Shown: positions 7,783 through 51,764 of the stretch, piece by piece | Position numbering within the stretch: position 1 is the stretch's first letter | Layout of the letters: each line of letters starts with the position of its first letter | NCBI GenBank assembly: GCA_002269645.1 | Contig: NIVC01000990.1 | Coordinates: 327,554 to 391,553, forward strand | Origin: Macrostomum lignano | Lineage: Eukaryota | Direction of reading: 5' to 3' | Length of the DNA stretch: 64,000 nucleotides | Made by a program: the position numbers and the translations under genes | The notes under the pieces: model-generated | Seen by the model: only the letters and a program-made list of their open reading frames with translations | The model's database searches: none | What the model was told of the DNA's origin: nothing

Positions 7783-7945
7783 GCGACTTTGTCTCACAAC
7801 CAGCACTGAGGCAACTCTGCCCATTCCGCTGGACTCCTAAGGACATACAAGCGCGCCGATACTGTACGCAGGCACGCACTCATACACACGCTCACACAGG
7901 GTGTACAGCGGCCCTTTGACTTTCTAATCGTCAGGCTTGATGTCC
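7783..7945 (-). mobile_element. Diverged fragment of the tRNA-derived SINE (3' half)
   Basis: CAGCGACTTTGTC..CATTCCGC..CATACAAGCGCGC.GAT..CTCACACAGG.TGTACAGCGGCCC matches the reverse complement of 23870-24025. Confidence 0.7.
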
Positions 7946-7989
7946 TGCTGCCCCAGAGTCGTGGCGCCGAGAAAAGGCCTTTAGCAAAC

Positions 7990-8655
7990 AACTTACCAAA
8001 GTGCTTTGCAAATCTTCTGATGCTAGGAGTTCCTCTTGAGATTCTCGACGGCGACGCTGGAAACATCCCGTCTGCCTGGATCTCTGCTATCCTCAACAGC
8101 TGCCAGGAGCTGGTCGGTGACAAGAAGATCTACGTTATCTCCGTGCTCGGTCTGCAGAGCTCAGGCAAGTCCACTCTGCTCAACACCATGTTCGGACTGA
8201 AGTTCGCAGTGAGCGCAGGTCGCTGCACTCGAGGCGCATTTCTGCAGCTGGTTCCGGTGGAGTCGGGAATGCCGTTCGACTATGTCGCTGTGCTCGACAC
8301 CGAGGGTCTTAGAGCTCCGGAGCTGGGTCTGGACAAGCATCACCATGACAACGAGCTGGCTACACTGGTCCTCGGACTGGGCGACGTGACCATCATCAAC
8401 ATCAAAGGAGAGAACGCTGCGGAGATGAATGAGATTCTGCAGGTTGCGATTCACGCCTTCATCAGGATGAAAATGGCAAAGAAAGATCGAGATCTGCACA
8501 GACACTGCATCTTCATACACCAGAATGTAGCAGCGGCTGGAGCAAAAGAGATGATGCAGGAAGCGACATTTTGTAACTTTGTAACGCTCTACCTTTTGCT
8601 GAATATGCCCGCACTCTTTATAAAGTGTAGTTACAGTTGCAATACCATGTTTTAG
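7990..8655 (+). pseudogene. Partial VLIG paralog containing the G-domain core (8026-8570, about 96% identical to 13411-13955), open reading frame
   Basis: GLQSSGKS (P-loop), AGRCTRG, DTEG and HQNV are all present with no stop or indel. Homology ends abruptly at 8570. Confidence 0.85.
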
Positions 8656-8914: not shown

Positions 8915-11900
8915 ATGGCGGAGGGGCATCCAAGATGCCCCCGGTGCAGCGAACCGATTCTCCGTGCTGACGCTCAGAACGCAGCCGGCCTGAGCTGGCA
9001 CAAACGCTGCCTGCGGTGCGGTAACGGTAAGTGAACCAACGATCGTGGCAGTCTAACCAGTTACGAGCTAGCTTTCATATCATACCGCACACTTTTGCTT
9101 ACACCTGCATATTCAATGCGCGGCACTTTATAAAAATTCTGAATCTGTAAGAGATCATTGTTTTTGTTTTTTACATTTGGATAGTTACTGACTTCGTAGT
9201 TACGAGGCCCCTATCGCAACCCCAAGGTAAAGGGTGCACTCAGCCCCCGCCAGTAGTCGGCATGTTCGCTGAGGGGGCATCGGCGATATTCATCGAGTCG
9301 GTATCTTGAACGAAGACGAAGAGATCACGGATGTCGACCAGCAAGATTGTCAGCTCGTCCATCCACTGGAGTTTGTCGAGGTGTTTGTACCGCGCCTTAT
9401 TGAAGTAAGGACAGAAGGTGACGTGATGCTCCGCGGTCTCCTCTTCTATGCCACAAAAGACGGTCGGTCTATGCCTTGAGGTCGGTTCTGCTAAGTGAGA
9501 TCAGATAATCTGCAGAGACTTTCCTGTTCTGGTTAGGCATTGTAGACCGGGTCTGCCTGTAGTCGGTGCAACTGTTCCAGTGGAGTTTGTGTTGCTGGTG
9601 GAGCCACCTGGATTTGTGGCCTAGGCTGGGTAGCCTCATCCGATGGTGGTTGCAGTCTTGGTTGCTGCCCTCTTTGGTGAGAGCATCTGCGAGCTCGTTG
9701 CCCAGGATATTGTTGTGACCGGATGTCCAGATGGTACTCGTACTGCAGACTGGCTTTAGTAGAGGTGAGAGAAGGCTTGACCACTACACAGCTTTGAGTG
9801 TCAATATATATTTAGTGATCAATATTTGTGTGGGGTGGGCTTGCGCCGCGCGGGGGGCGGCGGGAAGTCAGCTGTCGGCAGGCGCTTGAGGTTCATGATG
9901 CGGCGCATACCTGCACCTACCGCTGGAACATCAGCTCTGCAGAGGCCCTCCAGTGTTTGTGTGCGGCGTGCTACGGTAGGCCTCCAGCCAGTTTTAGAGT
10001 TGAACCAGTCGGATTTCTCAATGCTCGCGATGCTTTTTGATGGATGGTTGATGCGCTCGATGACTCAATTTGCTGCTGGCTGCTGGTGATGGGCGCTTTT
10101 GTTGCAGAGGAAGTCGTGGTAGGCTTGCGAGCTGAACGGAGGCCCGTTGTCTGAGACGAGCTGCGCTGGTCTGCCGAACGTGGAGAATAGCTTCCTTCCG
10201 TAGCTGCTTTGTGACGGCCTCGGCTGTCATGGACGACATGCGTACTACTATCTGGTAGCGGGAGAAATGGCGAGTAGATGCTTGTTTTGCACTGACCTAG
10301 TGAAGTAGGTTGTTTTTTATGAGGGCGATGGCCCTGGGGGTGTCGTTCACACAATGATACAGAGCCTGATAGCCTGGAGGCTTTCCCTTGGGGTTGTACC
10401 GCTCCTGGATGAGGTAGATGTCAACATCATTGTTGCCAAAGGTGTCTGAAAGGTTTCTAGAAGCTGCGAAAGCGAGGTTCAGGTTGATCTGAATAATGTA
10501 CAGGTAAACTGGTTACTTCGTCGCAGGCGGTTTATTTATCTGGTTGCGTGTGGCAGTGTCACCATTCGGCTGGCCTGCCCCTAGCTTGGCACAAGGTTTG
10601 GAACGGCATGACTCGTCCCCAGAGCGATCCGATCTCGCAAACTCCCCTCGGCGACGATCTCCGGCTGGGCGACGCCTGGGCAGCAGTTGAAAGACAATGC
10701 CGGTGTAGGCAGCAAAATCGCTTTTCTTCAGAGCGTCTTCCCACCCGCGGAGAAACTCTTGTACAGGCCAGGGTTTTGCCAGGGCATCTTTTGACTGAAT
10801 CTACTGAATTCTGTCCTAAGAGGTAGGTCGGGGTTCTTGCTGAGGAGCAGAGCTCGGGTCGCCCCGATGTTTCTTGAGCCACGAGGCTCAACGAGTCAAC
10901 GTTGAGAGGGGCGACTTTATTATCATTAAATATAGTTAATTTAATTTAATTCAAGTCGCTTTCTGGGAATGAAACTTAGCGACTATCTGTAGAAAGTAAA
11001 AAGTGAAAATTGCTTGAAAATTTCCACGAGTACTGTATGTTCTCAAGAAATACAATTAGAAAACAACTGCGTGAATACCTTTTCTGAGAATATACGCTCG
11101 TATCAGCGTATTTACTGCACGACTTGTGCAGAATAGATTCTTAAATTTTATACAGCATGCAAGAGACAGATATTTCCATTGACAATTTTAGATGCAGAAG
11201 TCCGTCTATCAAGTGCTGCATTGAAGGCCAAGGAAATGCTTTCGGAAAAGCATCCTGAATATGCATCCACTGCGTTTCTATACGTTATAGAGTCGTATTT
11301 AAGAAAGAAAAATATTGTTACATTGGACTCATTAGAAGCCATCGACTATGAGCTGATTAGGAAGCTCGCTGGAGATGAGGAAAGCAACCAAGTCTTGACG
11401 GATCTCTTTACTAAGCTGCATAAAATTATTAGGCCAACCAGTTCTGTCGCAGACAGAAAGAAAATGTTTGAGGCAATGACGCAACAAAATTCAAAGAAGC
11501 GATTCAGCACAATAAAGCAATCTGTTCCGGTACAGAAAGAGTTGGGTACATCGTCGACTACTCAACAATCGCTACCGCTATCCCCAAGGCCAGTGTCGAA
11601 GCTTGAACTTCCAGCGCCACCTGTTCCTACTCCTCCAAAAAGACAAGGCTCGATGCCAAATCGACCAAATGTCAACCCGCAGCCAACAACACCACGAGTT
11701 GCAGAACCGAGAAAGCCAATGAATTTTGGATCAGTTCAAGAAACTGTTGAACATCTCGGGTTGAAGTCTTATTATCCAGAGAGAATCTCGCGCAAGGATA
11801 TTCTTTTCGTCAGGAGAAGCCAAGACGAGCGCAGAAATTTGAAGGAAAATTCTGTTGCCTGGCAAGTCATCCGCGCACTCATCAGCTGCGACGCACAGGG

Positions 11901-14900
11901 GAGAAATTTGGTTCCAGAGACGACGGCACCGGCTTTACCGAAAAAAATGTCACTTTTAAACCTCGAGGACGATGATGAAGGCAGCTCTGAGAATGAGCTA
12001 AACCCGATGGATATTTTACTTGCGAGCTACCTCTGCTGTGACAAAGAGGTGCAACAGATGCTCTGCAAAGCTCTGTTTGCTTGCAAGCTGGCTTTCCCAT
12101 TCATCTATTCAACTGTTGGCAAGCCTCTGGTCATGAGCAGCTGGAGCCTGAAAGACATTGTAGTTCAGTTCATAAACGAAAATGGCCAGTACATAGAGAC
12201 CAGCCTGATGACAGATTATCATTTCCCGGTGGTATCATTTGTGAGGATCGGAGATTTGCCTGTGTCGAAGTCCAAGTTGCTGAACTCCCTACTCAATGGC
12301 AGCAGTCATGAGACGTTCTTCCACAGAGACTGCACCAACGGCCACGCGCGCAGAGTCTGCAGCAACGGACTCGTTGAGGCCACCGTGTTTCTGCCGTCCA
12401 GAAACAATAAACTGACTCGAGCCTTCTTGGCAACAAACCTCAGAGGTGACTTGCTGGATTTTCGAGACAAATATCAGGTTTTAACTTCGGCCTCCAAAGT
12501 TTTAGTTGTCTTTGTGGACGTCAGCACCCTTTCACAGCCCGAGTGCTTTAGCCAGCTTCAAAGCATGTCAAAAATGAAGGAATTGGAAGTGATAGTGGTT
12601 CTCTACAAAACTCAAACACTCGCGAATCCGTTAAGTAGCGAGTCGATGAGCATCCTTAAATCATTTTCATGCGTTGATACAAAGAAAGGAAGACCAGAGC
12701 GTGAAATAGTTGGCGAAATCCAACAAAGGCTCTCAGAGTCATTGGCAAAGGACGGTATGGAGCAGAAATCTATCGGAGAAATCAAAGTTGACTTTGATGA
12801 CGGTTCTCTCGTTTCTCAGGCAAGACAGCTTTGCAGCTTCATCTTTGCAGAGGTAACGAAATGCGGAATCATGAACTTAAAGAAGAAGCATCTTCCTCTG
12901 CAAGAAAAATGGATGGACTACAGTCGCCACTACAAAAAAGAAAACTCTTCTAAGGCAACAGATGAAGCAAAGTTAGAAGCTCAGCATCAGCGTTTTAAAG
13001 CCAGACGCCAGCAAATGGGTCTGTGCGATCAACTCAGCCCCATTATGGAGGAGTTTCTTACCACACTGACAAAGATTGCTGACAATGAGCTTCTGGTTAA
13101 GCTTTGGCTTCAGTGTATTCGATCTTTCTTCGACACTTCTAGAGAGCATTTGCCAAAGCTTCAAAAAATGCAGAAGGAATTGCGGCAGCAAAAAGAAACT
13201 GCAGATGAATCATCCCCAACCACGATAGATGATCAGCTCAAAGAACTTGGCCATCAAATACTGCTTGCTTCCATTGGCCTGGAAAACCTATTCAGAGAGG
13301 CGGGCCAAGTCTACGAGGCCAGTTCAGCAGCCTCTTTAGAAAGCACAAAGACTTTCCAAGCGCTTGACATCAATCTGTTTCCACGCGTGATGGCCAAACT
13401 CTTGCTGTGCGGAGTTCCTCTTGAGATTCTCGACGGCGACGCTGGAAACATCCCGTCTGCCTGGATCTCTGCTATCCTCAAGAGCTGCCAGGAGCTGGTC
13501 GGCGACAAGAAGATTTACGTGATCTCCGTGCTCGGTCTGCAGAGCTCAGGCAAGTCCACTCTGCTCAACACCATGTTCGGACTGAAGTTCGCAGTGAGCG
13601 CAAGTCGCTGCACTCGAGGAGCATTTCTGCAGCTGGTTCCGGTGGAGTCAGCAATGCCGTTCGACTATGTCGCTGTGCTCGACACCGAGGGCCTGAGAGC
13701 TCCGGAGTTGGGTCTAGAAAAGTATCACCATGACAACGAGCTGGCTACATTGGTCCTTGGACTTGGCGACGTGACCATCATCAACATCAAAGGAGAGAAC
13801 GCTGCGGAGATGAATGAGATTCTGCAGATTGCGATTCACGCCTTCATCAGGATGAAGATGGGAAACAAAGATCGAGATCTGCACCGACATTGCATCTTCA
13901 TACACCAGAATGTAGCAGCGGCTGGAGCAAAAGAGATGGTGCAGGAAGCGACATTCAAGATACAACAGAAACTCGACAACATGGCGAAGGAGGCGGCTGA
14001 AGAAGAAGGTCTCCATGACGTGAATCGTTTCGGAGACATTTTGCAGTTCAACAGAGACACGGATATTTTCTTTATGTCAGATCTGTTACAAGGCGACCCT
14101 CCCATGGCTCCAGTGAATCCGGGCTACTCCATGGGTGTTCAAGAGGTTAAGCAGCACCTTTTACATATTCTTGATGAAGAACAGAAGCGCTATCTGGGAT
14201 TCAGCGACTTTTCTCATCGAGTAAATGATTTGTGGAAGGCCATACTGTCTGAGGACTTTGTGTTTAGCTTTAAAAGCAGTGTCGAACTCAAAGCTTATAA
14301 CATGATGGAGAATAAATTTCTCGAAGTAAAAAATCACATTGAAGAGTTGAGCGAAGACTGGCTTCATAGATCGGCTGCGATTCCCGTTAGAAAATGCGAA
14401 ATGGTCAGTGCTGTCGCAGATGCGCAGCAGAGGGCGATAAGTGAGCTTCGTGCTATGCTTGAAACTTGGCAGCAGCAAGGTCTGAATTCCTTAAACCTAT
14501 TTTTGGATAAGAACCAGTACAGTGAGTACACCATACAATGGAAGGAGCGAAAGTTAGTGTCCCTAAGGGATTGCATCAAAAGTCTAGAACAGTCACTTCG
14601 GCAGAAACTCCAATTCTTGTGCGATGGGCAAAAAGTTGAGCTTCAGCAAGGTTCACGGACGGAGGAGTGGGAGTCTAAGATCATAAGACGGGCCACCGAA
14701 CTTGCACCCACGCTAAAGAGCAGCTCAACAGAAAAAATTCTGCAGGAATTCGAAGCTCTGTGGCAGGAGTTCGCGCAGCAGCTGCCACCTGAGAGAACAG
14801 TCGACTTCGGAAGTATCGAAAGTCAAGTGGTAGATCAACTGCGAGAGATCTACTATAATGAAAAAAATTATGTGGGCCTATTTTTGGAGCAAATTCCATT

Positions 14901-16482
14901 AAAGAGACAATCAGTGGCTCGAAGTGATAGCTTACCTGAAATACTGTTTCCTAAAGGAGACACTGTTCAGCTCATCATACCAGAACGTTCGAATATCAAA
15001 CAATTAAAAAGTTATGTTTCCAGTAAGCCAGAGAAAGAAGAGCGCAATCTAGTGGTAGACGTTGTATCTGACATTCTCAAGGCAGTTCAAAGTCTTTGTG
15101 AGGATATGAGGGGGGACTTGACAGGAGTTTCTAAGGTTCATGTTAATCGAATACAAAAATACGTGTGTGATGCAGTAAACTCGTCTATCAGAATATCGAG
15201 CAATCATATCCGCACAACGCGTGCATTCGAAATCAAGGTAGTGGTCCTCGCCCTCAGCATTGCATATCCAACATTTGAGCAGATGACGCGGAATTTTTAC
15301 GAAGCCAACAGCATCAAAACAAAGCTGGCCGATACGAAGACAAAGATGTTGAATTTATTTGAAAACATTGTCCGCCGGCAGGCCGAAGCCAAGATTGTGG
15401 CTGATTTCATTCGTGACCATCTGTACTCGGTGATGAAACAGGCTTTCCAGGAAAGAATGGCAGGTAAATTGAGAGGAGTAATGCGGAACGAGATCGGCAG
15501 GACAAAGTACCAGCTCATTGTTCGCATGCTGACCGACATAGCACAGAGACGTGACGCAGAATCGATCCTTCAATACGTGAGAGATTCCCATACTACTGCT
15601 CTGAAATGGCTAACGCAATTCATAAACCGTCAGCTGTTTCAGAGAACACCAGATGGCAATACTGTATTTTCAGGCCATCTCGAGTCATCGCTCATTGCGC
15701 CGATAATTGCGGTGACTGAAGAAGCGGCAAGAGTGGCGGCAACTCGGTGCACCTCGCTGAAAGTTTGGATCGATGAATTCTGTAAAGAAATCAAAAAAGA
15801 GTTCGTTGTGCTTCCTAGACACTTACAGCATGTCTGCACTTACGAATCTACTGTAAAAGTGGAAGACATGCTGAAGCATCTTTTAGGCGGCCTGGGCGAC
15901 CTCAAGTCCACACTAATAAAGCACTTCGCTAGTATGAACGAGTCAACAGTCAGATGGCATGGAGACTCCACTCTCTACTCCGATGTGCTTCAGAGCCTTT
16001 GGGGCTGCAACGAACGCTGCCCTTTCTGTAGCGAGCCGTGCTGCAAGTCTCAGGAAAATCACCACGAAAAAGACGGCAGCCCACATTGCTGCATTCAGCA
16101 CAGACCGCATGGAGTGAATGGTGTTTGTTATATTGGAACTGACCAGTTAAAATTTGAAAACTGCGAATGTCTTACATGTAGCGGTGACAGATTTTCATGT
16201 TGGATTTGCAAGCGAAGGGGTAAGCAGACGCCAAACTGTCGAGGAGACGACAGCGAACAAGAAGTGTATCACCCTTACAAAGAGTACAAAAAGTACTTTC
16301 CAGAGTGGGAGATTGATCCCGACGCAGGAAACGATTCGGCAAAGTTTTGGCACTGGTTCTCGTGGACATTTAAGGACAAGCTGCAGGCTAAGTATCAAAA
16401 AGGAATCGAACAGTTGCCTCCGACCTGGGAACTGGTTTCCAAGAAGGAGGCGATCGACAGCCTGCGCTTCTTGTTGGATTGA
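8915..16482 (+). CDS. Very large inducible GTPase (VLIG/GVIN1-URGCP family) with a predicted LIM-type N-terminal exon; exons 8915-9026 and 11156-16482 (about 1812 aa)
   Basis: The 1767-aa ORF has the URGCP-like SFVRIG..SKSKLLN..HETFFHR block, [37 protein letters not shown] and the Cys/His-rich tail [25 protein letters not shown]. The ORF has no proper ATG start. The acceptor TTTTATACAG at 11155 is phase-compatible with the LIM exon donor GTAAGT at 9027. The family call is high confidence; the splice is inferred. Confidence 0.85.
9250..10890 (-). mobile_element. Internally deleted RNase H-bearing non-LTR retrotransposon (LOA/R1/I-like) inside the LIM-VLIG intron
   Basis: Minus-strand translation gives the APE N-terminus [26 protein letters not shown] (about 10290-10505), RNase [22 protein letters not shown] (about 9670-9735), [10 protein letters not shown], and the C-terminal knuckle [17 protein letters not shown] (about 9410-9460). 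No RT core was seen; stops and frameshifts are present. Confidence 0.75.
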
Positions 16483-17153
16483 GTCGCTCGTTACTTGCAT
16501 TGGTCCTGAAGGCAGGAACTGTGTTTAAATGCACGCTTATCTATTGGAGCTAAAACTCGTAAATATTCAGTTTGTGCAAGTGTGCCTGTGTGTGTACAGT
16601 ATTATTTTTTAGTGTGCGCGGTACAGCAAGAAATTTTGTTTATATAAATTTGATTTTTCTTTCACGATCAGCACATAGTGAGGAAATACGAAAATGTTCA
16701 GCAAGATTCCATGCACGTGTAAGCTGGGAAGGATTTCTCAAACTCATGCAACTATTTGTTAAGAGTTTGGGCACGGACTTAGGATTGGTATATTTTTATA
16801 GCTAGCTATAGCAAGGCTGCTTTCGAGGGTGGATCGGAGCACTATATTTTGAAATTCCCTCTTAAACTTCGGTATATGTATAGCAAGCAGATCATGCATC
16901 AAGGGAGATTTCATAAATCCTTCGTTTAGGTAATTGCGATTGCATTGCAGTAGTACAAGCTGTAAACTGTTGTTTGCAAGCGCTAAACTTAACAACCGCT
17001 AAACCTTTGCAGTTGATAGATACTTTGTTGCAATGTTTCCATTAAGCATGAATGATAGCTAGCTATTTCTAAAAAAAATGTTTTCGCCTTTCGTGTTCAG
17101 CTTTCCGACAAAATTTTTCTTTGTTTCTGCAAATTTAAAATTTTAATGTCCAG

Positions 17154-17808
17154 TTCATAATGTCGATCGTCGATCGGCGAGTTTATGCTGCTAGAGTACC
17201 GGCACCGCTACTTTAATCAGCGGCCCTTCCGGTACTCCAATGTGCCAATTGGTGTCTTTACGACCACGCAGGCCCGGCTGCGCCTGTACGAGGCATTGGA
17301 GGGGCTCGGCGAACGGGCCATTTACTGCGACACTGACTCGTAAGTATTGCATTGATAAATTCTTTTAGAATTGAATAGTTGGCATGTGGAACTAATTATC
17401 TCTCTCCCCACACCCAGGGTCGTTTACCGGCATTCCGAGGGCCAATGGGAGCCGCCCCATGGCACGAGCCTCGGAATGTGGACCGACGAGGTGCCCGCAG
17501 GCAGCCGGATGACCGACTTTGTAAGTGGGGGGCCCAAACTCTACACTTACATTGTCGAGGATGCGGCCGGTGTCCGGAGCCAGGTCCTGAAATGCAAGGG
17601 CATCCGCCTGACTCCGGAGATTCGGGAGCGCAGTGACGACTTGCGCAATGCCCTGTTACACGGCGGCTCCCTGAAACTGCCGCAGTTTCAGTTCAGGCGC
17701 GACAAGGCGTCTTGTACCATACACACGATCAATATGGACAAGACGTTTCAGCGCGTCCTGACGAAGCGCGTGTACGGGGCCTGCAGCCGGCCTTATGGCT
17801 ATAAATAA
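17154..17808 (+). mobile_element. Polinton/Maverick/adintovirus protein-primed DNA polymerase B, C-terminal fragment with a 78-nt intron (17340-17417)
   Basis: NVPIGVFTTTQARLRLYEALEGLGERAIYCDTD-S|VVY..LGMWTDE..FVSGGPKLYTY..KCKGIRL..KRVY..PYGY*. GTAAGT donor and CCCAG acceptor. Probable frameshift near 17165. Confidence 0.85.
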
Positions 17809-18524
17809 TGTAATCCAATTATAACTGACGATTCAATGTACATTTCGCAATATTAAATTAGTAAAATCTATTTATTGCACATAATTTGCATTGTAATACT
17901 GCTGTATTTATCAGAATCTATTTGCTGTATATATAATTCATGTACATAGAGCATTTTTGTATTGTGTGTAGCGAAATTGCCAATGTAAAAATCTATTGTA
18001 CATATTTTGCATGTCAGACCTGTTTAAAATCATTTATGAAGAGAAAATTATTGAAAAACAATGTAAAATTTTCTGTATATTCTATTTGCTGGTGATGGTG
18101 TACATGTCTTGATTCCTGTAATATGCTACTGATTAAATGTAAATATATCTTCATTGTAAATACTTATACATGATGTGCGCTACACTGTTAGTTGACTCAT
18201 TTGGTAGTAGATGAGATTAGTAATTCTCGCCTCTGCGTACATGTAGTATTGTACATGTAATTTTGGTGCGCGCTCAGACCGTCTGGGGATGACACTGTAG
18301 ATTAATGTGAGTGTACATATAGAATTGGGGATAGACATGGACATTTGAGATATGGATTAATGTACATATCCAATTTGGGATAGATAGGGATTAATGTACA
18401 TGGAATTAATATGAGCACATGGATTATTACAACTACATATTGGCATATATCACGCTTAGGATAGCGTTTTTGTATACTACTTACTTCATTTTTCAGATAG
18501 TAGTATAATTTGCGTTTTTTGCGT

Positions 18525-21150
18525 CAAATCTGCCTAAAAACCCAGCAGTTTCTACGCGTTATGTAGTGTAAAGCATTGGCCAAGCGATGCTCCAATGGTC
18601 AAGAAAAACTCTACCAAAAGGCCAATTAATCCTCCTTCTGTTTTTAATGGAGTTCCTAGCTCGTGTTTTGTTCAGAACCAAGGTACGTAACTTAAAGATT
18701 GCTCAACACTTAGCGTCTATATCGATTTTGCCGCTCACAATTATCTTACTTTTATTTTTACTCTTATTTTAGACCAAGACAGACAGGCCGAAAAGCGCGG
18801 TGTTCTTTCTGACGCGAGGTGCAGCGACATTGATGAGATGGACGCTTTTCAGCTGCTTGATTTTTTGCCGGCATGGGAAAGTTTTCGAGCTGAGGTGAAA
18901 AATTCGGATGTCGTATCTCGACATGCACTGAACACAGCTGTTCTGAACGAGACGTTTACTTGTTTACGTTAGATAAAGATGGAGACCTGTCTGCTCGAAT
19001 TTTTGTCTCACCCAACTTTCTGATTCGTGCATTCAAACTGTATACACCGATTTCGGTTCGAGACTTGTTGGGATTTCAACCGACACTCAAGCGCTGGTCG
19101 CAACTGGATGCTGTTGTCGTGCGGTGCAAAAATTCCGACGCCAATCCCCAACGTGAAGTCGACGTGTTTGTTAGTAGAATCAGTGATGATATAGATTCTG
19201 ACTCTGATTTGGATCCGTCGCTTCAGTTTTTGATTCGACAACTTAGCCTTACATTAGTAAATCGGAACAATCGCCGCTATGACATTTCACTAGTGCGACA
19301 GTCAGCATTGCTCTACTTGATCAGTAGTTCGGCTTACTCTTACCTACGGAAGCTATTGCCATTGCCTCATCCCCGAACGCTGCAGCTGCAACTAGCAGGT
19401 ACAGGAGAAGTTGGCACAGAAACCGACGCAGCCGATGTGATCCAGTCAGTTTTTGCTAGTCTATCAGGAGCTCAGCGAAACTGCGTAATATGTTTGACGA
19501 AATGTACATACAACCGTCCGTTCGATATCGATGCCGTCACCTGGGTCGAGCCGTCGACGATCCGGACCAGGTTGCTAGGACAATTTTGGCCATAATGGTG
19601 AAGCCATTACTTGGTGGAAAACCGTTTGTAGTCCGACTATTGCCGACATACATTTTGTCTGCGGAGTTTCTGCGAAAATGCGTCAGCCAATGTATTAAAG
19701 CAATTAACAACAACGGTGGCCGTGTCGTTGCTCTCGTCAGCGACAATCACCCGACCAACCGCAAGTGTTTTGCTTTATTTAGCGATGGAAGAGAGAAGCC
19801 ATGGATTGGAACGGATGCTGCACAGGAGTCGGAATTCTTCATGCTGTTCGATTTCGTTCACATTATCAAATGCATTCGCAACAATTGGCAAATGGAAGCG
19901 AATGGAATTCTAAGCATTCAACCTCCTGGCGCTGACAGACAGATATCCGCTAAATGGTCAGACATGGTACGCCTGTACCAAATGGAGAAAGACCACGTAG
20001 TCAAGCGCACATGTCTAACTCATGAGGCCTGTTATCCCACAAGCACTCAGAAAACTAAAGTCAGTCTCGCTCTCCAAGTTCTCGATGAAAGGGTTGCCGC
20101 TGCATTGAAGTGTGATGGATACTCAGACACTGCGGAATTTATCAAAACCATAGTGAGATTCTGGAAAATTGTCAATTGTAAAAATCCTGATCTACACGCA
20201 CGACTACGGGATCCGGACAGGCGACCAGTCTATTCCGTTCAAGATGAAAGCATACAATTTCTTAGCGCGCTCGCGGATTCGTTTGATACGACACATTGTG
20301 GAAAAGGCCGAGCTCGCCATCATTCATTGACGCCCGAGACCAAGTCAGCGCTAGTAAACTCACTGCGCGGAGCCTGTGAGATGTGTGAGGTTCTTTTGTC
20401 CGACCCACGAATCAGCTACGTTCTGCTGGCTGGCTGGCGTATATCGCCAAATGAGCGGCGGCAACTACTATGTATCTGTGGAGCAAGTGCTGCTCAGTGC
20501 TCGACTCCGACGAATGAAATTATTGGCATCCCTTGAATTAGCAGACTACAAGCACGATCGGAGCAAATGTTGCAATGAACAGCTGAATGAAATTGAACTG
20601 GCGACCATTGATAATTGTGCTGCTAAATCAGAGGAGCTTTCCATTTCGGAGATGGCTTCGCTCTACTATATCGCAGGTAAGCTGGATATTAATTAAAATT
20701 TAATTCACAACGAGGTTTTACACAATCTCATAAAAACAATTCAAACCGTGCTTAATTGGAAATTGACAGGTTATACAGCGACTAAAGAAGGCAGGCATCA
20801 TAGGAACAGATTTGATATCAGAGACGAGCATTCCAGCCAGCGAATTCACTGAAGAGTTATCTCGCGGAAAGCTTTGTCATCCTCCACAATGGCTGTTAGA
20901 CTTATCCTGTCTCTGCTACAGCAGTTTTATTCTGCACTCTCGTACGTGCGCAACTCGCGTGCAGAAGCTGTTTTATGTTATTAAGGACTTTTACTTTCCA
21001 ACTAAGACACAGTTCAGCATGGACAGTGTCCCGTCGGCTAGCCAACGTTTTTTTCAAAGGACTAGTAAGACGCTCGTCAAAACTCCCACCAATACCGACG
21101 ACATCCCATGATAGAAAGCTTCGGAAGTTAGATGCTCAGTAGGTGAAGTT
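18525..21150 (+). mobile_element. THAP-domain P-element (THAP9-like) transposase relic with introns and frameshifts
   Basis: THAP remnant C.VKHWP..RPINPPSVF; SAYSYLRKLLPLPHPRTL; FDEMYI; VVALVSDNHPTNRK; LFDFVHIIKCIRNNW; KVSLALQV. Short GT-AG introns at about 18682-18771 and 20677-20770. No TIRs were found. Confidence 0.8.
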
Positions 21151-24326: not shown

Positions 24327-25349
24327 TCAGCCGGTGCGGTCGAAAACCAGACGTAAGTCGGCGCTGTCCAGCTTGTTGGCCGAGACGCCCACGGCCGCGA
24401 CGACGCCGTCGAGAAAATCTGTCGGACCACCGCTGCTGCCGCTCCAGCCGATGGCCATGCAGTAGCTGGTGTCGGCATTGAGGTAGCGCCCAGTAGGCAG
24501 AGTGTTATGCGGCACCACGGTGTAGTCCACGAAGTATTTGTAATCGTAATCGCTTGGGTCGTCATGAATACTTGACCGGTTGATAGCCAATGCCAGCGTG
24601 AAGAACTGACTGTCATCATCTGGCAGGGCGGACTCACCGGTGTAGGACGTGGCGTACGGACCCAGGTCGGAAAACAGAGCTCCGTTAGGCGACGAATTCG
24701 GGGCCAGGTAGTTCTTCTCGAGGATCTCCATGATCATCACCTTGAAAGTGGCGCAGTCAGTCAGCTCAAAAAAGATATTGTTTTTTGGTCTTCTTTTCAA
24801 GCGAATCCCAAACGACAAAGTATGTGTAAGGTGGAGCAACGGTACCGGAGAGGACCACAGCCTAGAGTTGTTTGAACCGTACAGACGAGGTCCCTCGCTG
24901 GTCCAGGTGACTCCAGTTGACATTATGGTTGCATCGGTTCCGCCCGGCATGCAAGCCAGGCTTTCCATCCTTCCAGTGCCGGCGTCTCCAACCCAGATAA
25001 ATAAGAACAGTCGGCTGGCCGAGATCGCGTCATACTTGGTGCCGAGGACCGTCCTGCAGCTGGTCGGGGTGGGTTGCTCATATTGACCGGCAGCCATAAG
25101 CTGCTGGCAGACTCGCTGGTAGTTGTACAGCCAGCAAGTGTTGTCGCGGTCGTTCCACTGGGCCACGGCAAGGCCGCCCATGTCGTTGGTGCGGCTGGTC
25201 GCCACGCAGTCGATGAACGACGTGGCGGAGGAGTCGCTGCCGCGAGACTGGTCGAGGCAGTCGGTGTGGAGAATGTTGAGAGTTTTGGCGGTGGCGAGCG
25301 CCTGCAGCTGCACGAGCAGCAGAGTGGCAGTCAGTGCTCGAAGTGGCAT
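24327..25349 (-). CDS. Intronless secreted protein (about 340 aa): signal peptide, Cys-containing PAN/apple-like region and a possible ConA/LamG-like beta-sandwich
   Basis: Long GC-rich ORF. MPLRALTATLLLVQLQALATA looks like a signal peptide. The domain calls are pattern impressions only. Confidence 0.65.
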   Translation of the reverse strand: MPLRALTATLLLVQLQALATAKTLNILHTDCLDQSRGSDSSATSFIDCVATSRTNDMGGLAVAQWNDRDNTCWLYNYQRVCQQLMAAGQYEQPTPTSCRTVLGTKYDAISASRLFLFIWVGDAGTGRMESLACMPGGTDATIMSTGVTWTSEGPRLYGSNNSRLWSSPVPLLHLTHTLSFGIRLKRRPKNNIFFELTDCATFKVMIMEILEKNYLAPNSSPNGALFSDLGPYATSYTGESALPDDDSQFFTLALAINRSSIHDDPSDYDYKYFVDYTVVPHNTLPTGRYLNADTSYCMAIGWSGSSGGPTDFLDGVVAAVGVSANKLDSADLRLVFDRTG

Positions 25350-26667
25350 GCCAGGTTTTGTGCAGGTGGTGTTTCGTCGTAAGTTGCTTTTGCTGCGTCG
25401 AAATTTGAGCACATATTTATACAAGATTTAGCCTAGTGGGGCTCCCCCAATCCAGCCACAATGAATTTTTACTCCATCATCCGTATCAAAAAATAATAAT
25501 GATAGAAATCTGGGCTATAACTGTGACGAAGTCGGATCCTTGTGAATGCTTCTATTTTGCACAAAATAAAATCGATGCTTTCGCATCAATAATATGATGG
25601 AAGGAAAAAATTCATTTTCAGCAGTCTGAGCGGAAGACTCAGAATTGGGAGCGTAGCCAGGATTTTTGCCTCGAAGCCGTGTCTTCGAGGGCGGCAGCAG
25701 GGGTGCGCCGACCGAATTTTTAGTACCGTTTTTCGAGGGCGCATGGACAGACAGGCTGGCTTTGTAAATGACGAGTAATCTAAATTGTACTATTATTGTA
25801 CTATTTGTTTTGGTTTCAAGTTTCGGGGAGCCGTGTAAGGCCCTCCCCTTTTGCTAGCCACTCTACATGTAATAAAACTTCGTAGTCATTTTTATACTTT
25901 TCCTACTGCTGCTTAACTTTGTTGTGTTTTGTACTGAGCACCGGTAATTTGTTAGTATAAACTGCTATATATTTAGCTATACTTAGCTAATTTGAAATCG
26001 CCTAAGACTCGGTTCCATCAGAAATCCGCTAGACAAATACTAACAGCGACCGATACCGAAGGCCAAGGAGGGTCTTACAGGCGGCGACATCGGATTGTGG
26101 GAACAGGGGCACAGGGCAACACTAGGTCCCTTACATACATTCTATTGATGACATCAGCTAATTGTCGCCAAAGCCCAAATGTAACATTTACTTAAAATTG
26201 TTTTTGCATTTTGAGCTTGTAAGTTTTTGTGTTGCGAAAAAATCGATGGGTATCAAATTTTTAGCTTACATTATATTATGAACAGTTCCGGCTCAAATCG
26301 TCATAGGCGGGTTACGAGAAACACAATTGAATATCTAAATCGTCATCGTCTTGATCTAATGCTGAATTCACTAACTCGTCATATTGTACTGTTGCATTGG
26401 CTGCGCAAGGATATCTCTTAGGTCACTGAATTTTGAGCACTAATATGTAAATGCTTACAGCCTAATTTACATGTAACTTTGTTTAAGTTGCACATAAATG
26501 TACACGTAGCAAATTCTGAAGGTTGCTTGGAGAAGGAATTTCCAGCAATAGTGTGTAATGGAATGTGCAAAGTACTGTATCAAAGCCTATTATATTTCTT
26601 ATTTTTTCGTATTTCTTATTCTTACGAAAGAATACATAGGAAGAAATTCTTATATTCATATTTCTTC

Positions 26668-49320: not shown

Positions 49321-50274
49321 TTTTTTACCAAACAAAAGCATTTTGCGACACCAGATGCGGGTAAACCAGAGAAAAAGAAACTGTTCTGAAAATAACTGTG
49401 ATATTAAACAGCGAAAGTCTCTCTTGTGTTAAAAAAATTTGTCGAGTGTACGCTCGTAAGAGCTCGAAGGTTGCGACGTACGCAGAGAAAAGTGAAAAGA
49501 GAGGGCAAGAAAGGCTTGCTGGGTTGAAAAGCACGCGGAGGCAAGAAGCTTGTCTCCGGAGAAGAGGAAGAGAGATAAACTTTCTCAGTGTAGCCGACGC
49601 CGTGTGCTAAAAACAGTCGAGTGTGCGAGCTTGTACATCTTGAAAATTGATGTTTTTAGTACAATAGATGTTGATCTACGGGGTTGATTTTTTTGACCAG
49701 GGCGTTTTTGGGCCCCATTTTGCCCCAAAAGAGATTTTGCTAGATGTCGATCTAATGGGGGTTCTGCTGTCCCAGGGGTGGTGCGGGTTGACCTTTTTAG
49801 CGCCCTCAGATCGACAATTGTAAGCATTGCATTGAGTTGGTTAATTTTAGATACAAGGGCATTACGCTCATATGTATAAATAGATTTTAGTGGATGTTCA
49901 TCTCCTTTCTCAAGATATCAACTTGTCAATGCTGCCCCTACATATTATTTAGGTTTCAGAAATAGTTTTGCATCCGTCTCCTTCTTATCGGCTTATTGTC
50001 TGAAAGCAAGTGTAAACAAGTTTTGCTATTGTGCCAAGAAATTTTGTTTTTTTGCTATACCTGGTGGCGAAAACAACGCAGAGGATACAACATATTATTG
50101 TACAGATTCACGGATCTCGTCTATACTGAAAATCCTTCAAGCGAAATTAAGTCGTTATCGCGTCTGCTAGCAGTCCTTCTCTAGACCTAAGACTTTATGA
50201 GGAAAAGCTTGCAGTGTTTCCGCATCGAGAATAAAAACTGTTTAACTGTTGAATGACGATGGGGATTCAGATTA

Positions 50275-51585
50275 CGAGGGTCACTCAGAAAGTCTTTAGC
50301 CTGAGTAGGATCCACGAGACGTAGAAGCATGAAATTTGTCTATGGTAAAGACCAACTTTTAAAAGTATCGCAGCAAAAATTTCAAACAGAAGCAGCCACT
50401 TTTGAGTCCACTGCAGCGAGTTAAAGTCAGTTCACCCCCCTGAGATCTTCAATTCAACAATGAAGCTGGAAAATCGCGACTTCAGAGCAATGATGTACCT
50501 GCACTTCAAGCAAGGCAAGTCGCCGGCCGAATCGTATCAAACTTTACAGAACGTTTTCACCCATGTATGTCCTTCATACGCAACCGTCAAAAACTGGTTC
50601 GCTGAGTTTCGCCGAGGTCGAGAAAGCCTCGAAGATGAACATCGATCCGGGAGACCCTGTGACGCAGTGACTCCAGAAAATATCTGCGCTGTGTCCAGCA
50701 TGATTGCCGCTGACCGGCGAGTGACCTACCAGCAGATCCAGCAGGAGATCGGTATTGGATCGGGGAGTGTGCACGCCATTATGCACGAACACCTTGGAGT
50801 GCGGAAGCTGGCTTCCCGGTGGATCCCCCATCAGCTGTCGGACGTGCAGAAGGACACCAGGGTGGCTTGGTGCCGATTCATGCTGCAGAAATTCGAATCC
50901 GGGACCAGCCGGCGTATCTGGGACATCCTCACGGGCGATGAGACCTGGATTTATCAATACGACCCCGAAAGCAAGCGCCAGTCAGCCATGTGGACCTTTG
51001 GAGACGAGGACAGCCCCACCAAGTTTCGACGCAGCCGGAGTGTCGGCAAGCAGATGGTGGCTTGTTTCTTCATGCGCACTGGGCATGTGGCTTCCGTTTC
51101 ACTTGAAGATCGCCAGACAGTCACCACTGACTGGTACACAACGGTTTGCCTGCCCAAGGTCTTTTCTGCTGTGAGCCAGAGGCGCCCAAGGTGCGGAATG
51201 CGTGGGGTGCTTCTGCACCACGACAACGCCAGCGCGCACACGGCGGCTCAAACTCTGGAGTTTCTGGCTGACTGTGGGGTCCAGCTGATGACTCACCCTG
51301 CTTACAGTCCAGACCTGGCACCGTGCGACTTTTTTCTGTTTCCGAAGTGCAAGGAGATTCTGAAGGGCCAGGTCTTTTCTTCACCGGAAGAAGCTGTGAA
51401 TGAGTTTAAAAACATCATCGAGGAGCTCCGGGATGAGGATTGGCGGCAGTGCTTCGACAGCTGGTTTCACAGGATGCAAGCCTGTATCAATGCCGGTGGA
51501 GAGTATTTTGAGCACTTGTAGTCATTTTTTAGTTCATTTGTTGCTGTTTTCGTGTTCAAGCTAAGAACTTTCTGAGTGACCCTCG
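50275..51585 (+). mobile_element. Complete mariner (DD34D) transposon, 1311 bp
   Basis: TIRs CGAGGGTCACTCAGAAAGT (19 bp perfect, extending with mismatches); TA duplications at 50273-50274 and 51586-51587. Confidence 0.97.
50460..51521 (+). CDS. Mariner transposase, 353 aa, intact
   Basis: HTH N-terminus, WIPHQL, TGDETW, HHDNASAH and YSPDLAPCD with 34 residues between the second and third Asp. Confidence 0.97.
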   Translation: MKLENRDFRAMMYLHFKQGKSPAESYQTLQNVFTHVCPSYATVKNWFAEFRRGRESLEDEHRSGRPCDAVTPENICAVSSMIAADRRVTYQQIQQEIGIGSGSVHAIMHEHLGVRKLASRWIPHQLSDVQKDTRVAWCRFMLQKFESGTSRRIWDILTGDETWIYQYDPESKRQSAMWTFGDEDSPTKFRRSRSVGKQMVACFFMRTGHVASVSLEDRQTVTTDWYTTVCLPKVFSAVSQRRPRCGMRGVLLHHDNASAHTAAQTLEFLADCGVQLMTHPAYSPDLAPCDFFLFPKCKEILKGQVFSSPEEAVNEFKNIIEELRDEDWRQCFDSWFHRMQACINAGGEYFEHL

Positions 51586-51764
51586 TAACTGCTGACTTCA
51601 AAGTGAAAATATTTTACTATGAACGGCCACTTGCAGTACATGAGGGACACTTGCAATAGAATCTTTAGTTGCTGTGAAATCCTTAGCTGATAACCAATAC
51701 TGATAATCCATGTCTTGCGAGAACAGCCAGCATTCCCCAGCTACAGCCCCCCATCCCACTTTTC

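What the first reader, a model, noticed from the sequence alone, without database searches (positions are those of the whole stretch)
17154..17808. Spliceosomal intron splitting the catalytic DTDS motif of a Polinton/adintovirus polymerase
Seen: TAC TGC GAC ACT GAC TC | GTAAGT...78 nt, AT-rich...CCCCACACCCAG | G GTC GTT TAC. Removing the intron restores YCDTDSVVY in frame through to the stop at 17808. A further acceptor-like AG at 17152-17153 with an AT-rich upstream stretch hints at more introns. Known: pPolB genes of Polintons/Mavericks and adintoviruses are usually described as uninterrupted ORFs. Inference: either an intron-bearing, nucleus-adapted Polinton lineage or intron gain after endogenisation or domestication. 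The intron makes polymerase activity dependent on host splicing.
Basis: partly seen in the sequence, partly recalled or inferred. Interest (0 to 1): 0.7.

Follow-up and report, generated by a model that had tools for sequence, protein, structure and literature searches.

The report
Introns in a split Polinton's polymerase
A virus-like jumping element in a flatworm genome has host-type introns in all three catalytic motifs of its DNA polymerase gene and no detectable integration or capsid genes, so it likely borrows these from a separate element with the same ends, ends that are also found on 9-kb mirror-image DNAs with no recognisable genes.

Summary
The intron is real: 17340-17417, GT..AG, skipped exactly in contigs of 7 of 7 runs from 5 studies (RNA status guessed). 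It is present in 68 of 69 other copies examined, and none is intron-less. The window holds only a 3' fragment (17177-18567); the AG at 17152 is host DNA.

Longer copies are 8.5-9.9-kb elements with ACTAC..GTAGT ends and 6-bp target duplications. They encode an adintovirus-type polymerase and a PC4-like protein, but no integrase or capsid. Spliced introns also split motifs A and B, and three more are predicted upstream. All positions are shared by two families whose introns no longer align. No intron was seen in 85 outside relatives.

The same ends flank a 10.5-kb capsid-bearing element (ATPase seen, integrase not seen by me) and 8-10-kb near-perfect palindromes (21 of 34 end-pairs fetched).

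Best reading: a segmented, nucleus-bound Polinton derivative whose polymerase segment gained introns once. The bias towards catalytic motifs is only modestly significant (p 0.015-0.08). The scan noted the three-motif introns and the split before, on other DNA; I found no note linking the palindromes to it.

The parts
17340..17417 (+). 78-nt GT-AG spliceosomal-type intron in the Ser codon of polymerase motif C (DTDS), phase 2
   Evidence: (joint 17339>17418 in 4 of 4 runs)
17177..17339 (+). 3' part of the penultimate pPolB exon; 5'-truncated, family similarity starts at 17177
17418..17808 (+). last pPolB exon (129 codons plus stop; KxY and KCKG-like motifs read directly from the sequence)
   Evidence: 121 matches in G000
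17809..18567 (+). 3' non-coding region and right terminal inverted repeat of the family-A element, ending ...GTAGT at 18567; family-A subterminal motif at 18496-18525
   Evidence: loose ends at 18568
11137..16482 (+). context: host URGCP/very-large-inducible-GTPase-like ORF (1781 codons) 695 nt upstream, possible source of read-through transcripts
   Evidence: (PF25683 E 2e-110)
16483..17176 (+). context: host sequence, shared to 17170 with a paralogous locus that lacks the element; holds the false acceptor at 17152-17153
18894..20536 (+). context: unrelated P-element-type transposase in two overlapping frames
   Evidence: PF12017, PF21787, PF21788

Best explanation
The 78-nt segment is a spliced GT-AG intron in a fragment of a multi-copy 9-kb element that encodes an intron-split protein-primed DNA polymerase but no detectable integrase or capsid, and that is likely the replication segment of a split Polinton whose separate same-ended partner would supply integration and packaging. 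SHOWN: splicing at motifs A, B and C in public contigs whose RNA status is guessed; the same intron positions in both families; end repeats and 6-bp target duplications; purifying selection on the last exon; a capsid gene and an ATPase-like gene inside the same ends elsewhere; giant palindromes with the same ends. INFERRED: the host transcribes and splices the gene in the nucleus. The polymerase copies any linear DNA that carries the ACTAC ends by protein priming. Copying goes from DNA to DNA with no reverse-transcription step, so introns gained once before families A and B split were passed to every new insertion. A retroviral-type integrase acting in trans makes the 6-bp duplications. The palindromes are satellites, and the common 8-10.5-kb size reflects packaging. 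For why three of about six introns sit in catalytic motifs, I favour differential retention, because imprecise loss is lethal there (about 40%). The rivals are descent from homing-type elements (25%), chance (25%) and masking of nuclease sites (10%).
For: Splicing: (motif C 4 of 4 and 4 of 4, motif A 3 of 4, motif B 2 of 4). Conservation in 69 loci: motif-C intron in 64 by pattern plus 4 by eye, motif B in 62, motif A in 58, none intron-less. Divergence: motif-C introns are 77% alike within A, 90% within B and 51% between families (shuffled 50%); flanking exons are 91-98% alike within families; pN/pS is 0.14 and 0.10. Ends: paired ACTAC..GTAGT ends with 6-bp duplications in 35 of 59 loci, 4 of 4 and one more. 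Gene content: no integrase, capsid, ATPase or protease hit inside the elements. Partner: B-type ends 10.5 kb apart flank a double-jelly-roll capsid ORF on C807, and single B-type ends lie 1.9 and 3.2 kb from such ORFs on C4635 and C150; an ATPase-like ORF lies inside the C150 end (E 2e-20). Palindromes: 21 of 34 end-pairs. Contrast: 6 conventional Polinton polymerases of this genome are long single ORFs of 786-1478 aa, and 8 of 12 such elements end AGTAG..CTAC(T).
Against: No run is on record as RNA, and contigs cannot assign splicing to one locus. I saw no integrase in the partner, did not read its full interior or its target duplication, and found no partner with family-A ends. Only 3 of 14 capsid ORFs of the 443-aa group lay near an end, with one end variant searched (35 of at least 254 ends). 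Among 40 + 20 + 4 stretches picked by end motifs, none was an integrase/capsid segment. Trans-activity, excision, episomes and particles are untested. The motif bias is modest on a conservation-profile test: Fisher p 0.015, 0.037 or 0.077 for 5, 6 or 7 introns. The three 5' introns are predicted only; they were not among the joints listed, where 13 joints were not shown.
Confidence: 0.7

Rival explanations
1. Helper-dependent satellite without a dedicated partner: the polymerase element is real and intron-bearing but is integrated by the abundant conventional Polintons, and the same-ended capsid loci are chance nestings or recombinants.
For: The genome holds at least 151 Polinton-type integrase matches, with 6-bp duplications seen at C114 and C2506. 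Three polymerase elements have conventional Polinton genes in their flanks (L095, L103, C1158). The elements recombine readily (L164, L212).
Against: Conventional ends read AGTAG..CTAC(T), the opposite polarity (8 of 12). Three capsid ORFs of one uncharacterised group lie inside B-type ends, one of them between a 10.5-kb pair. At C150 the end runs into its own interior with an ATPase-like ORF.
Confidence: 0.17
2. The introns are remnants of homing-type elements (group I introns or inteins) that targeted the catalytic motifs and were later replaced by spliceosomal introns. This rivals the retention model only and is compatible with the split element.
For: Three of about six introns lie in motifs A, B and C (post hoc probability 2e-5 for exactly those motifs, 1.5e-2 for 120 conserved codons). 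Inteins and group I introns prefer conserved sites and spliceosomal introns do not (PMC2814812, passages). The polymerase carries a Vsr-like nuclease insert.
Against: The introns are 65-128 nt with plain GT-AG ends and no Rfam match. No intron or long insert was seen at these motifs in 85 outside loci. Two other introns lie in poorly conserved positions (rank p 0.72 and 0.997).
Confidence: 0.25
3. Domestication or intron gain after integration: a host gene derived from a Polinton polymerase gained introns and was then duplicated with host DNA.
For: Purifying selection on the last exon; expressed and spliced; integrase and capsid absent.
Against: Dozens of dispersed copies have precise element ends and different 6-bp duplications. 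Flanks are unrelated. Many copies are truncated or frameshifted.
Confidence: 0.04
4. A random insertion mimicking GT-AG, or an assembly artefact.
For: The window's 78 nt are a multiple of three, and run kinds are guessed.
Against: Exact skips in 7 of 7 runs; present in 68 of 69 loci with lengths of 65-95 nt and fixed donor and acceptor.
Confidence: 0.01

Closest known systems
Polintons/Mavericks; Alpha adintoviruses (PMC8502044, passages; 10.1101/2023.08.22.554363, passages)
   Same: PF03175 polymerase with an N-terminal Cys/His pair aligned to the fish-adintovirus region and a Vsr-like insert; 27-37% identity to outside relatives, including a croaker adintovirus PolB; terminal inverted repeats; 6-bp duplications.
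   Different: 8.5-9.9 kb, not 13-25 kb; no integrase, capsid, ATPase or protease in the polymerase element; at least 3 spliced and about 6 predicted introns, where intact vertebrate elements have none (PMC8097293) and a nematode Maverick's core genes are intronless (10.1101/2022.07.12.499685); ends ACTAC..GTAGT rather than the AGTAG..CTAC(T) of this genome's conventional elements.
Introner-bearing maverick-polinton-like elements of dinoflagellates (10.1101/2025.03.18.643946, first third of text read)
   Same: Spliceosomal-type introns inside Polinton-like elements.
   Different: There, recent introner transposons landed mostly after integration. Here the introns are old, fixed, unlike each other (59% vs 52% shuffled; 55% vs 52%), inherited through transposition, and in an animal.
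Bidnaviruses (PMC8502044 passage; PMC4061559 search listing only)
   Same: Related polymerase type; genome segments with matching termini.
   Different: Bidnaviruses are single-stranded DNA viruses; their parvovirus-like capsid and lack of integration are recalled. Here the segments are integrated, the partner capsid is double-jelly-roll, and the polymerase gene is spliced.
[quoted passage not shown]
   Same: Insertion into the most conserved catalytic motifs of a host protein.
   Different: These are short GT-AG introns with no nuclease ORF or ribozyme fold, a class that the paper found to have no conserved-site preference.
Intron-containing DNA transposons (CACTA, PMC4158355 search listing; P element, recalled) and foldback or snap-back defective genomes (recalled)
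   Same: DNA-level mobility keeps introns; long non-coding inverted repeats are mobilised in trans.
   Different: The spliced gene is a viral-type polymerase, not a transposase. The palindromes are 8-10 kb, multi-copy, Polinton-ended and match the coding elements in size.

Membership tests
U2-type spliceosomal intron | GT..AG ends with donor consensus | tested here: met
   Motif-C introns: GTAAGT in 17 of 17 distinct A; GTAAGT or GTGAGT in 20 of 22 distinct B; CAG in all
U2-type spliceosomal intron | removed precisely from transcripts | tested here: met
   Exact skip in 7 of 7 runs; run kind is a guess; no intron-less DNA copy in 69 loci
U2-type spliceosomal intron | branch-point motif near the 3' end | tested here: inconclusive
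   YTRAY in 10 of 17 (6.6 expected) and 15 of 22 (4.3) motif-C introns, 12 of 15 (6.3) motif-B introns of A, but 1 of 29 (12.8) motif-B introns of B
Polinton/Maverick (autonomous) | protein-primed PolB | tested here: met
   PF03175 E 4e-27 on one exon; relatives; tree
Polinton/Maverick (autonomous) | retroviral-like integrase in the same element | tested here: not met
   No Pfam rve hit in 14 ORFs of 2 copies; in 69 loci only LTR-retrotransposon-like or flank hits with in-genome integrases
Polinton/Maverick (autonomous) | terminal inverted repeats and 5-8-bp target duplication | tested here: met
   35 of 59 loci, 4 of 4; 6 bp
Polinton/Maverick (autonomous) | 13-25 kb with capsid, ATPase and protease genes | tested here: not met
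   8.5-9.9 kb, none of these genes detected; capsid and ATPase-like ORFs lie in a separate same-ended element
Polinton/Maverick (autonomous) | intronless core genes (usual, not formally defining) | tested here: not met
Alpha adintovirus PolB class | N-terminal OTU domain plus pfam03175 | tested here: inconclusive
   pfam03175 met; Cys and His motifs align with fish-adintovirus PolB, but no profile or fold test of OTU was run
Introner elements | sequence-similar introns at unrelated sites | tested here: not met
   Motif-C vs motif-B introns 59% and 55% against 52% shuffled (8 copies each); no genome-wide search run
Group I/II self-splicing introns | ribozyme fold or Rfam match | tested here: not met
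   No such match at E<=0.1 in 5 loci, 3 of them polymerase elements; introns only 65-128 nt at the three motifs
Segmented Polinton (proposed) | complementary segment with same ends, capsid and ATPase | tested here: met
   C807 pair 10.5 kb apart around a capsid ORF; C150 and C4635 single ends; ATPase-like ORF in L314
Segmented Polinton (proposed) | partner carries integrase and lacks polymerase | tested here: inconclusive
   No polymerase match at those places (lower-bound lists); interior not read, integrase not seen
Segmented Polinton (proposed) | segments complement each other and are co-packaged | not testable with these tools
   needs material from worms

The most novel reading that the evidence does not exclude
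A multipartite, integrating double-jelly-roll virus lineage of an animal. It has an intron-rich polymerase segment, an intron-free capsid/integrase segment and virion-sized palindromic satellites, all joined by one reversed-polarity end sequence. Its spliceosomal introns are placed or kept in all three catalytic motifs, as inteins are, so that host splicing gates replication of the whole system.
Probability: 0.35. Interest if true: 0.88.

Novelty: new variant of a known kind. Interest (0 to 1): 0.72.

Why it matters
Polinton core genes are described as intronless and as lying in one element. A spliced, recently amplified polymerase element that lacks the rest of the genome shows a route from virus to nucleus-bound, cooperative transposon. 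Introns fixed in motifs A, B and C of a gene copied only through DNA give a natural test of whether intron position is shaped by gain or by loss. A segmented dsDNA Polinton with size-matched palindromic satellites would bear on whether Polintons make particles, and the host named by the database labels is a laboratory model. Practically, ORF-based surveys would miss or mis-call such elements as decayed.

Tried and rejected
1. AG at 17152 as an acceptor: rejected.
2. The 'no intron' calls at motif A in family B were a pattern artefact, because that intron's 5' end itself reads V-S-L-Y. Corrected.
3. The apparent third family (55-60% hits) proved to be frameshifted family-B copies.
4. Derivation from this genome's conventional Polintons: BLASTP E>=0.005 and distant in the tree (FastTree, 53 rows, midpoint root, long branches; one in-genome polymerase, C393, was left out by the motif filter).
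5. Partner hunts that failed: 40 stretches with end pairs or ends, 20 solo B ends (three look-alikes were host duplications with a short end remnant), and C1090 and C1368. A-type solo ends were not fetched.
6. PF04665 found nothing in G000 although ATPases exist there, so it is uninformative.
7. A viral-contig scan with the single exon found nothing.
8. Atlas look-up of the orphan ORF gave no usable hit. PDB search of the ATPase-like ORF gave only weak P-loop matches.
9. No protein or DNA similarity between A and B palindromes. Their Rfam hits are dinucleotide-repeat artefacts below threshold.
10. No RNA holder is listed on record.
12. The contig running from the host flank into the spliced fragment (X7 record 16) carries paralog-type variants up to 17119 and may be a chimeric unitig.
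13. Kapitonov and Jurka 2006 could not be opened; it is cited only through PMC8097293.
14. Literature searches. No listing described fixed spliceosomal introns in an animal Polinton polymerase, a split Polinton or such palindromes. Subscription papers, Repbase reports and all supplements were unseen and could hold this.

Full report
1. THE OBSERVATION. The segment is at 17340-17417 (78 nt, GTAAGT..CCCAG, 36% GC against 57% and 60% in the flanks). It interrupts the Ser codon of Y-C-D-T-D-S in phase 2, and the downstream frame is open to the stop at 17808. Unspliced, the frame stops at once. Public contigs skip exactly these bases in 4 of 4 runs laid on the window and 4 of 4 laid on a sister copy: 7 distinct runs from 5 studies. 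The runs are only guessed to be RNA, so I looked for an intron-less DNA source. Of 70 loci examined, 69 held the last exon. The intron was found in 64 by pattern and in 4 more by eye; one has a replaced donor, and none lacks it. Lengths run from 65 to 95 nt, and 38 of 64 are not multiples of three. Some loci are probably haplotype duplicates (57 copies collapse to 52 distinct). The second 'acceptor' at 17152 is wrong. Family similarity starts at 17177. A paralogous host locus without the element matches to 17170 and differs at 17152.

2. WHAT THE WINDOW HOLDS. A 5'-truncated fragment, 17177-18567, 97% like its closest copy over 971 nt. It ends in the family's right end and lies 695 nt behind a host URGCP-like GTPase ORF. 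It cannot encode a polymerase. One contig runs from the host flank into the spliced fragment, but it may be a chimera with the paralog, so splicing is shown for the family, not for this locus.

3. THE ELEMENT. The last exon matches 121 places in G000, in two families about 68% alike in protein. Database labels name the closest proteins as automated gene models of the flatworm Macrostomum lignano; outside relatives are 27-37% identical. Copies have paired ACTAC..GTAGT ends and distinct 6-bp duplications in 35 of 59 loci (33 of 8.5-9.9 kb, two internally deleted), 4 of 4 and one more; the rest are truncated or overran the stretch. They encode a PF03175 polymerase with aligned N-terminal Cys/His motifs and a Vsr-like insert. 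They also encode a PC4-like ORF (Pfam E 0.11; homologue of a conventional Polinton ORF in 35 loci), and in some copies a dUTPase or an orphan ORF. No integrase, capsid, ATPase or protease was detected inside. Conventional Polintons of the same genome have long single-ORF polymerases (786-1478 aa in 6 read), and 8 of 12 sampled end AGTAG..CTAC(T), the other 4 being unresolved. The intron-bearing polymerases form one clade (support 1.0) among adintovirus-type sequences, far from those. Its nearest outside relative, P0040, has all three motifs in one ORF.

4. THE INTRONS. Introns also split motif B (62 of 69 loci) and motif A (58 of 69), with none intron-less; both are spliced, in 2 of 4 and 3 of 4 runs. 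Three further donor or acceptor sites are shared by both families further 5'; these are predictions, and an extra small exon seen in L035 is included in the count of about six. Motif-C introns are 77% alike within A, 90% within B and 51% between families, against 50% for shuffles. Exons are 91-98% alike within families, with pN/pS 0.14 and 0.10 (the between-family ratio rests on 2 pairs and is not used). So the introns predate the family split and were carried through amplification. They do not resemble each other or any ribozyme. In 85 outside loci the motifs were contiguous in 80 of 85 (A), 68 of 73 covered (B) and 56 of 64 covered (C). The breaks were stops, frameshifts, short in-frame inserts or contig ends, and 4 checked by eye showed no intron; that set favours uninterrupted ORFs. 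Is the motif placement more than chance? The post hoc figure is 2e-5 for exactly these motifs but 1.5e-2 for 120 conserved codons. A conservation-profile test on 34 outside proteins gave ranks 0.022 (A), 0.008 (B), 0.125 (C), 0.72 and 0.997, combined p 0.015-0.077. The bias is probable, not proven. PMC2814812 (passages) found such a preference for inteins and group I introns but not for spliceosomal introns.

5. PARTNERS. End motifs occur 212 (B) and 140 (A) times, controls 0 (only the first 100 of each were listed). Many pairs enclose no polymerase. Of 40 stretches fetched, 34 had end pairs with duplications, and 21 of these are 8.1-9.9-kb near-perfect palindromes without recognisable genes. 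Different flanks, duplications and shared interiors argue against assembly artefacts. I noted a bipartite idea, but my first hunts failed. Earlier AI notes claimed a 10.5-kb partner, so I tested further. A double-jelly-roll capsid from a metagenomic relative (identified) hit a group of 14 intron-free 443-aa ORFs. B-type ends lie 10.5 kb apart around one of them (C807), and 1.9 and 3.2 kb from two others (C4635, C150). The C150 end shares about 46 nt with the polymerase elements and then leads into its own interior with a 218-aa ATPase-like ORF. I did not see the integrase, the partner's duplication, or any A-type partner.

6. HOW IT LIKELY WORKS. Shown: splicing, family-wide introns, transposition scars, gene content and same-ended elements. 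Inferred from established Polinton biology (protein-primed replication, retroviral-type integrase; 10.1101/2023.08.22.554363 passages and own knowledge): integrated copies are transcribed and spliced in the nucleus. The polymerase copies linear DNA bearing ACTAC ends. The partner supplies integrase and capsid in trans. The palindromes ride along, and the shared 8-10.5-kb size suggests packaging. With no RNA step in replication, introns persist. Those in catalytic motifs would be the hardest to lose by imprecise deletion, which is my preferred reason for their placement. Rivals and odds are given above.

7. WHAT IS KNOWN. Intact vertebrate Mavericks show no introns (PMC8097293, passages). A nematode Maverick's core genes are intronless while its cargo genes have introns (10.1101/2022.07.12.499685, passages). 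Introners occur in dinoflagellate polinton-like elements (10.1101/2025.03.18.643946, first third read), and group I introns in protist PLVs (PMC12220804, passages). Polintons lacking polB but still mobile are reported in insects (10.1101/2025.02.07.637071, passages), a partial precedent for complementation. Bidnavirus segments share termini (PMC8502044, passages). PMC6431247 and PMC5718144 (passages) added nothing on this point. Ten searches listed nothing describing this arrangement; subscription papers, Repbase and supplements were not seen. The element works like half of a Polinton but fails membership as an autonomous one (no integrase, no virion genes, too short).

8. VERDICT. The main observation is confirmed and the second acceptor rejected. 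It is a new variant of a known kind, with interest 0.72. This scan reported the three-motif introns (e1-8586750), the minimal replicon (e1-8581114) and the split (e1-8580994, e1-8581312) on other DNA of this genome. One lone 9.4-kb palindrome was noted without a second copy (e1-9898789); I could not check that it belongs to the families found here. A spliced 5' intron in a Polinton polymerase (e1-9218235) was not checked.

Noticed in passing
L152-L191 (e.g. L158 = G000:C303, L176 = G000:C903): Multi-copy 8.1-9.9-kb near-perfect palindromes (arms mostly 99% alike) with family-A or family-B ends and 6-bp duplications and no recognisable gene. A arms overlap the left part of A polymerase elements; B arms are mostly their own sequence and share repeats with the capsid element's end.
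   Followed up: partly
L095, L103, L125/L150/L151: Three family-B polymerase elements have conventional Polinton genes in their flanks, suggesting nesting.
   Followed up: no
L073:765-1220 (-): Some family-A copies carry a dUTPase ORF (PF00692 E 1e-30) and the PC4-like ORF, while others have a non-coding left arm resembling the palindromes.
   Followed up: partly
L035:8190-8272 and most family-B copies: The motif-A intron's 5' end reads V-S-L-Y in frame, the same residues that open the next exon; possibly a trace of origin by local duplication, possibly chance.
   Followed up: no
element ends: Positions 8-27 of the ends are hypervariable in blocks between copies yet usually matched at the two ends of one copy, while ACTAC and a T-run at 28-31 are fixed in both families; several copies have mismatched ends with an intact duplication.
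   Followed up: no
window 11137-16482 and 7810-8655: URGCP/very-large-inducible-GTPase-like ORF and a partial second copy. If the spliced fragment lies in its 3' UTR, the intron could affect mRNA stability (inference).
   Followed up: partly
G000:C2301:57884/68481, C3189:43161/53747, C592:151509/156682: Inverted pairs of Polinton integrase ORFs 5-10.6 kb apart: possibly palindromic or long-TIR forms of conventional Polintons.
   Followed up: no
window 50272-51588: Mariner-type transposase ORF (50406-51521) between 33-nt inverted repeats.
   Followed up: no
window 24327-25427 (-): 366-codon ORF with a signal-peptide-like start and no Pfam match.
   Followed up: no
L035:952-1006 (-): Sub-threshold twister-P1 ribozyme match (45.5 bits, E 6e-7) in host DNA outside the element.
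   Followed up: no
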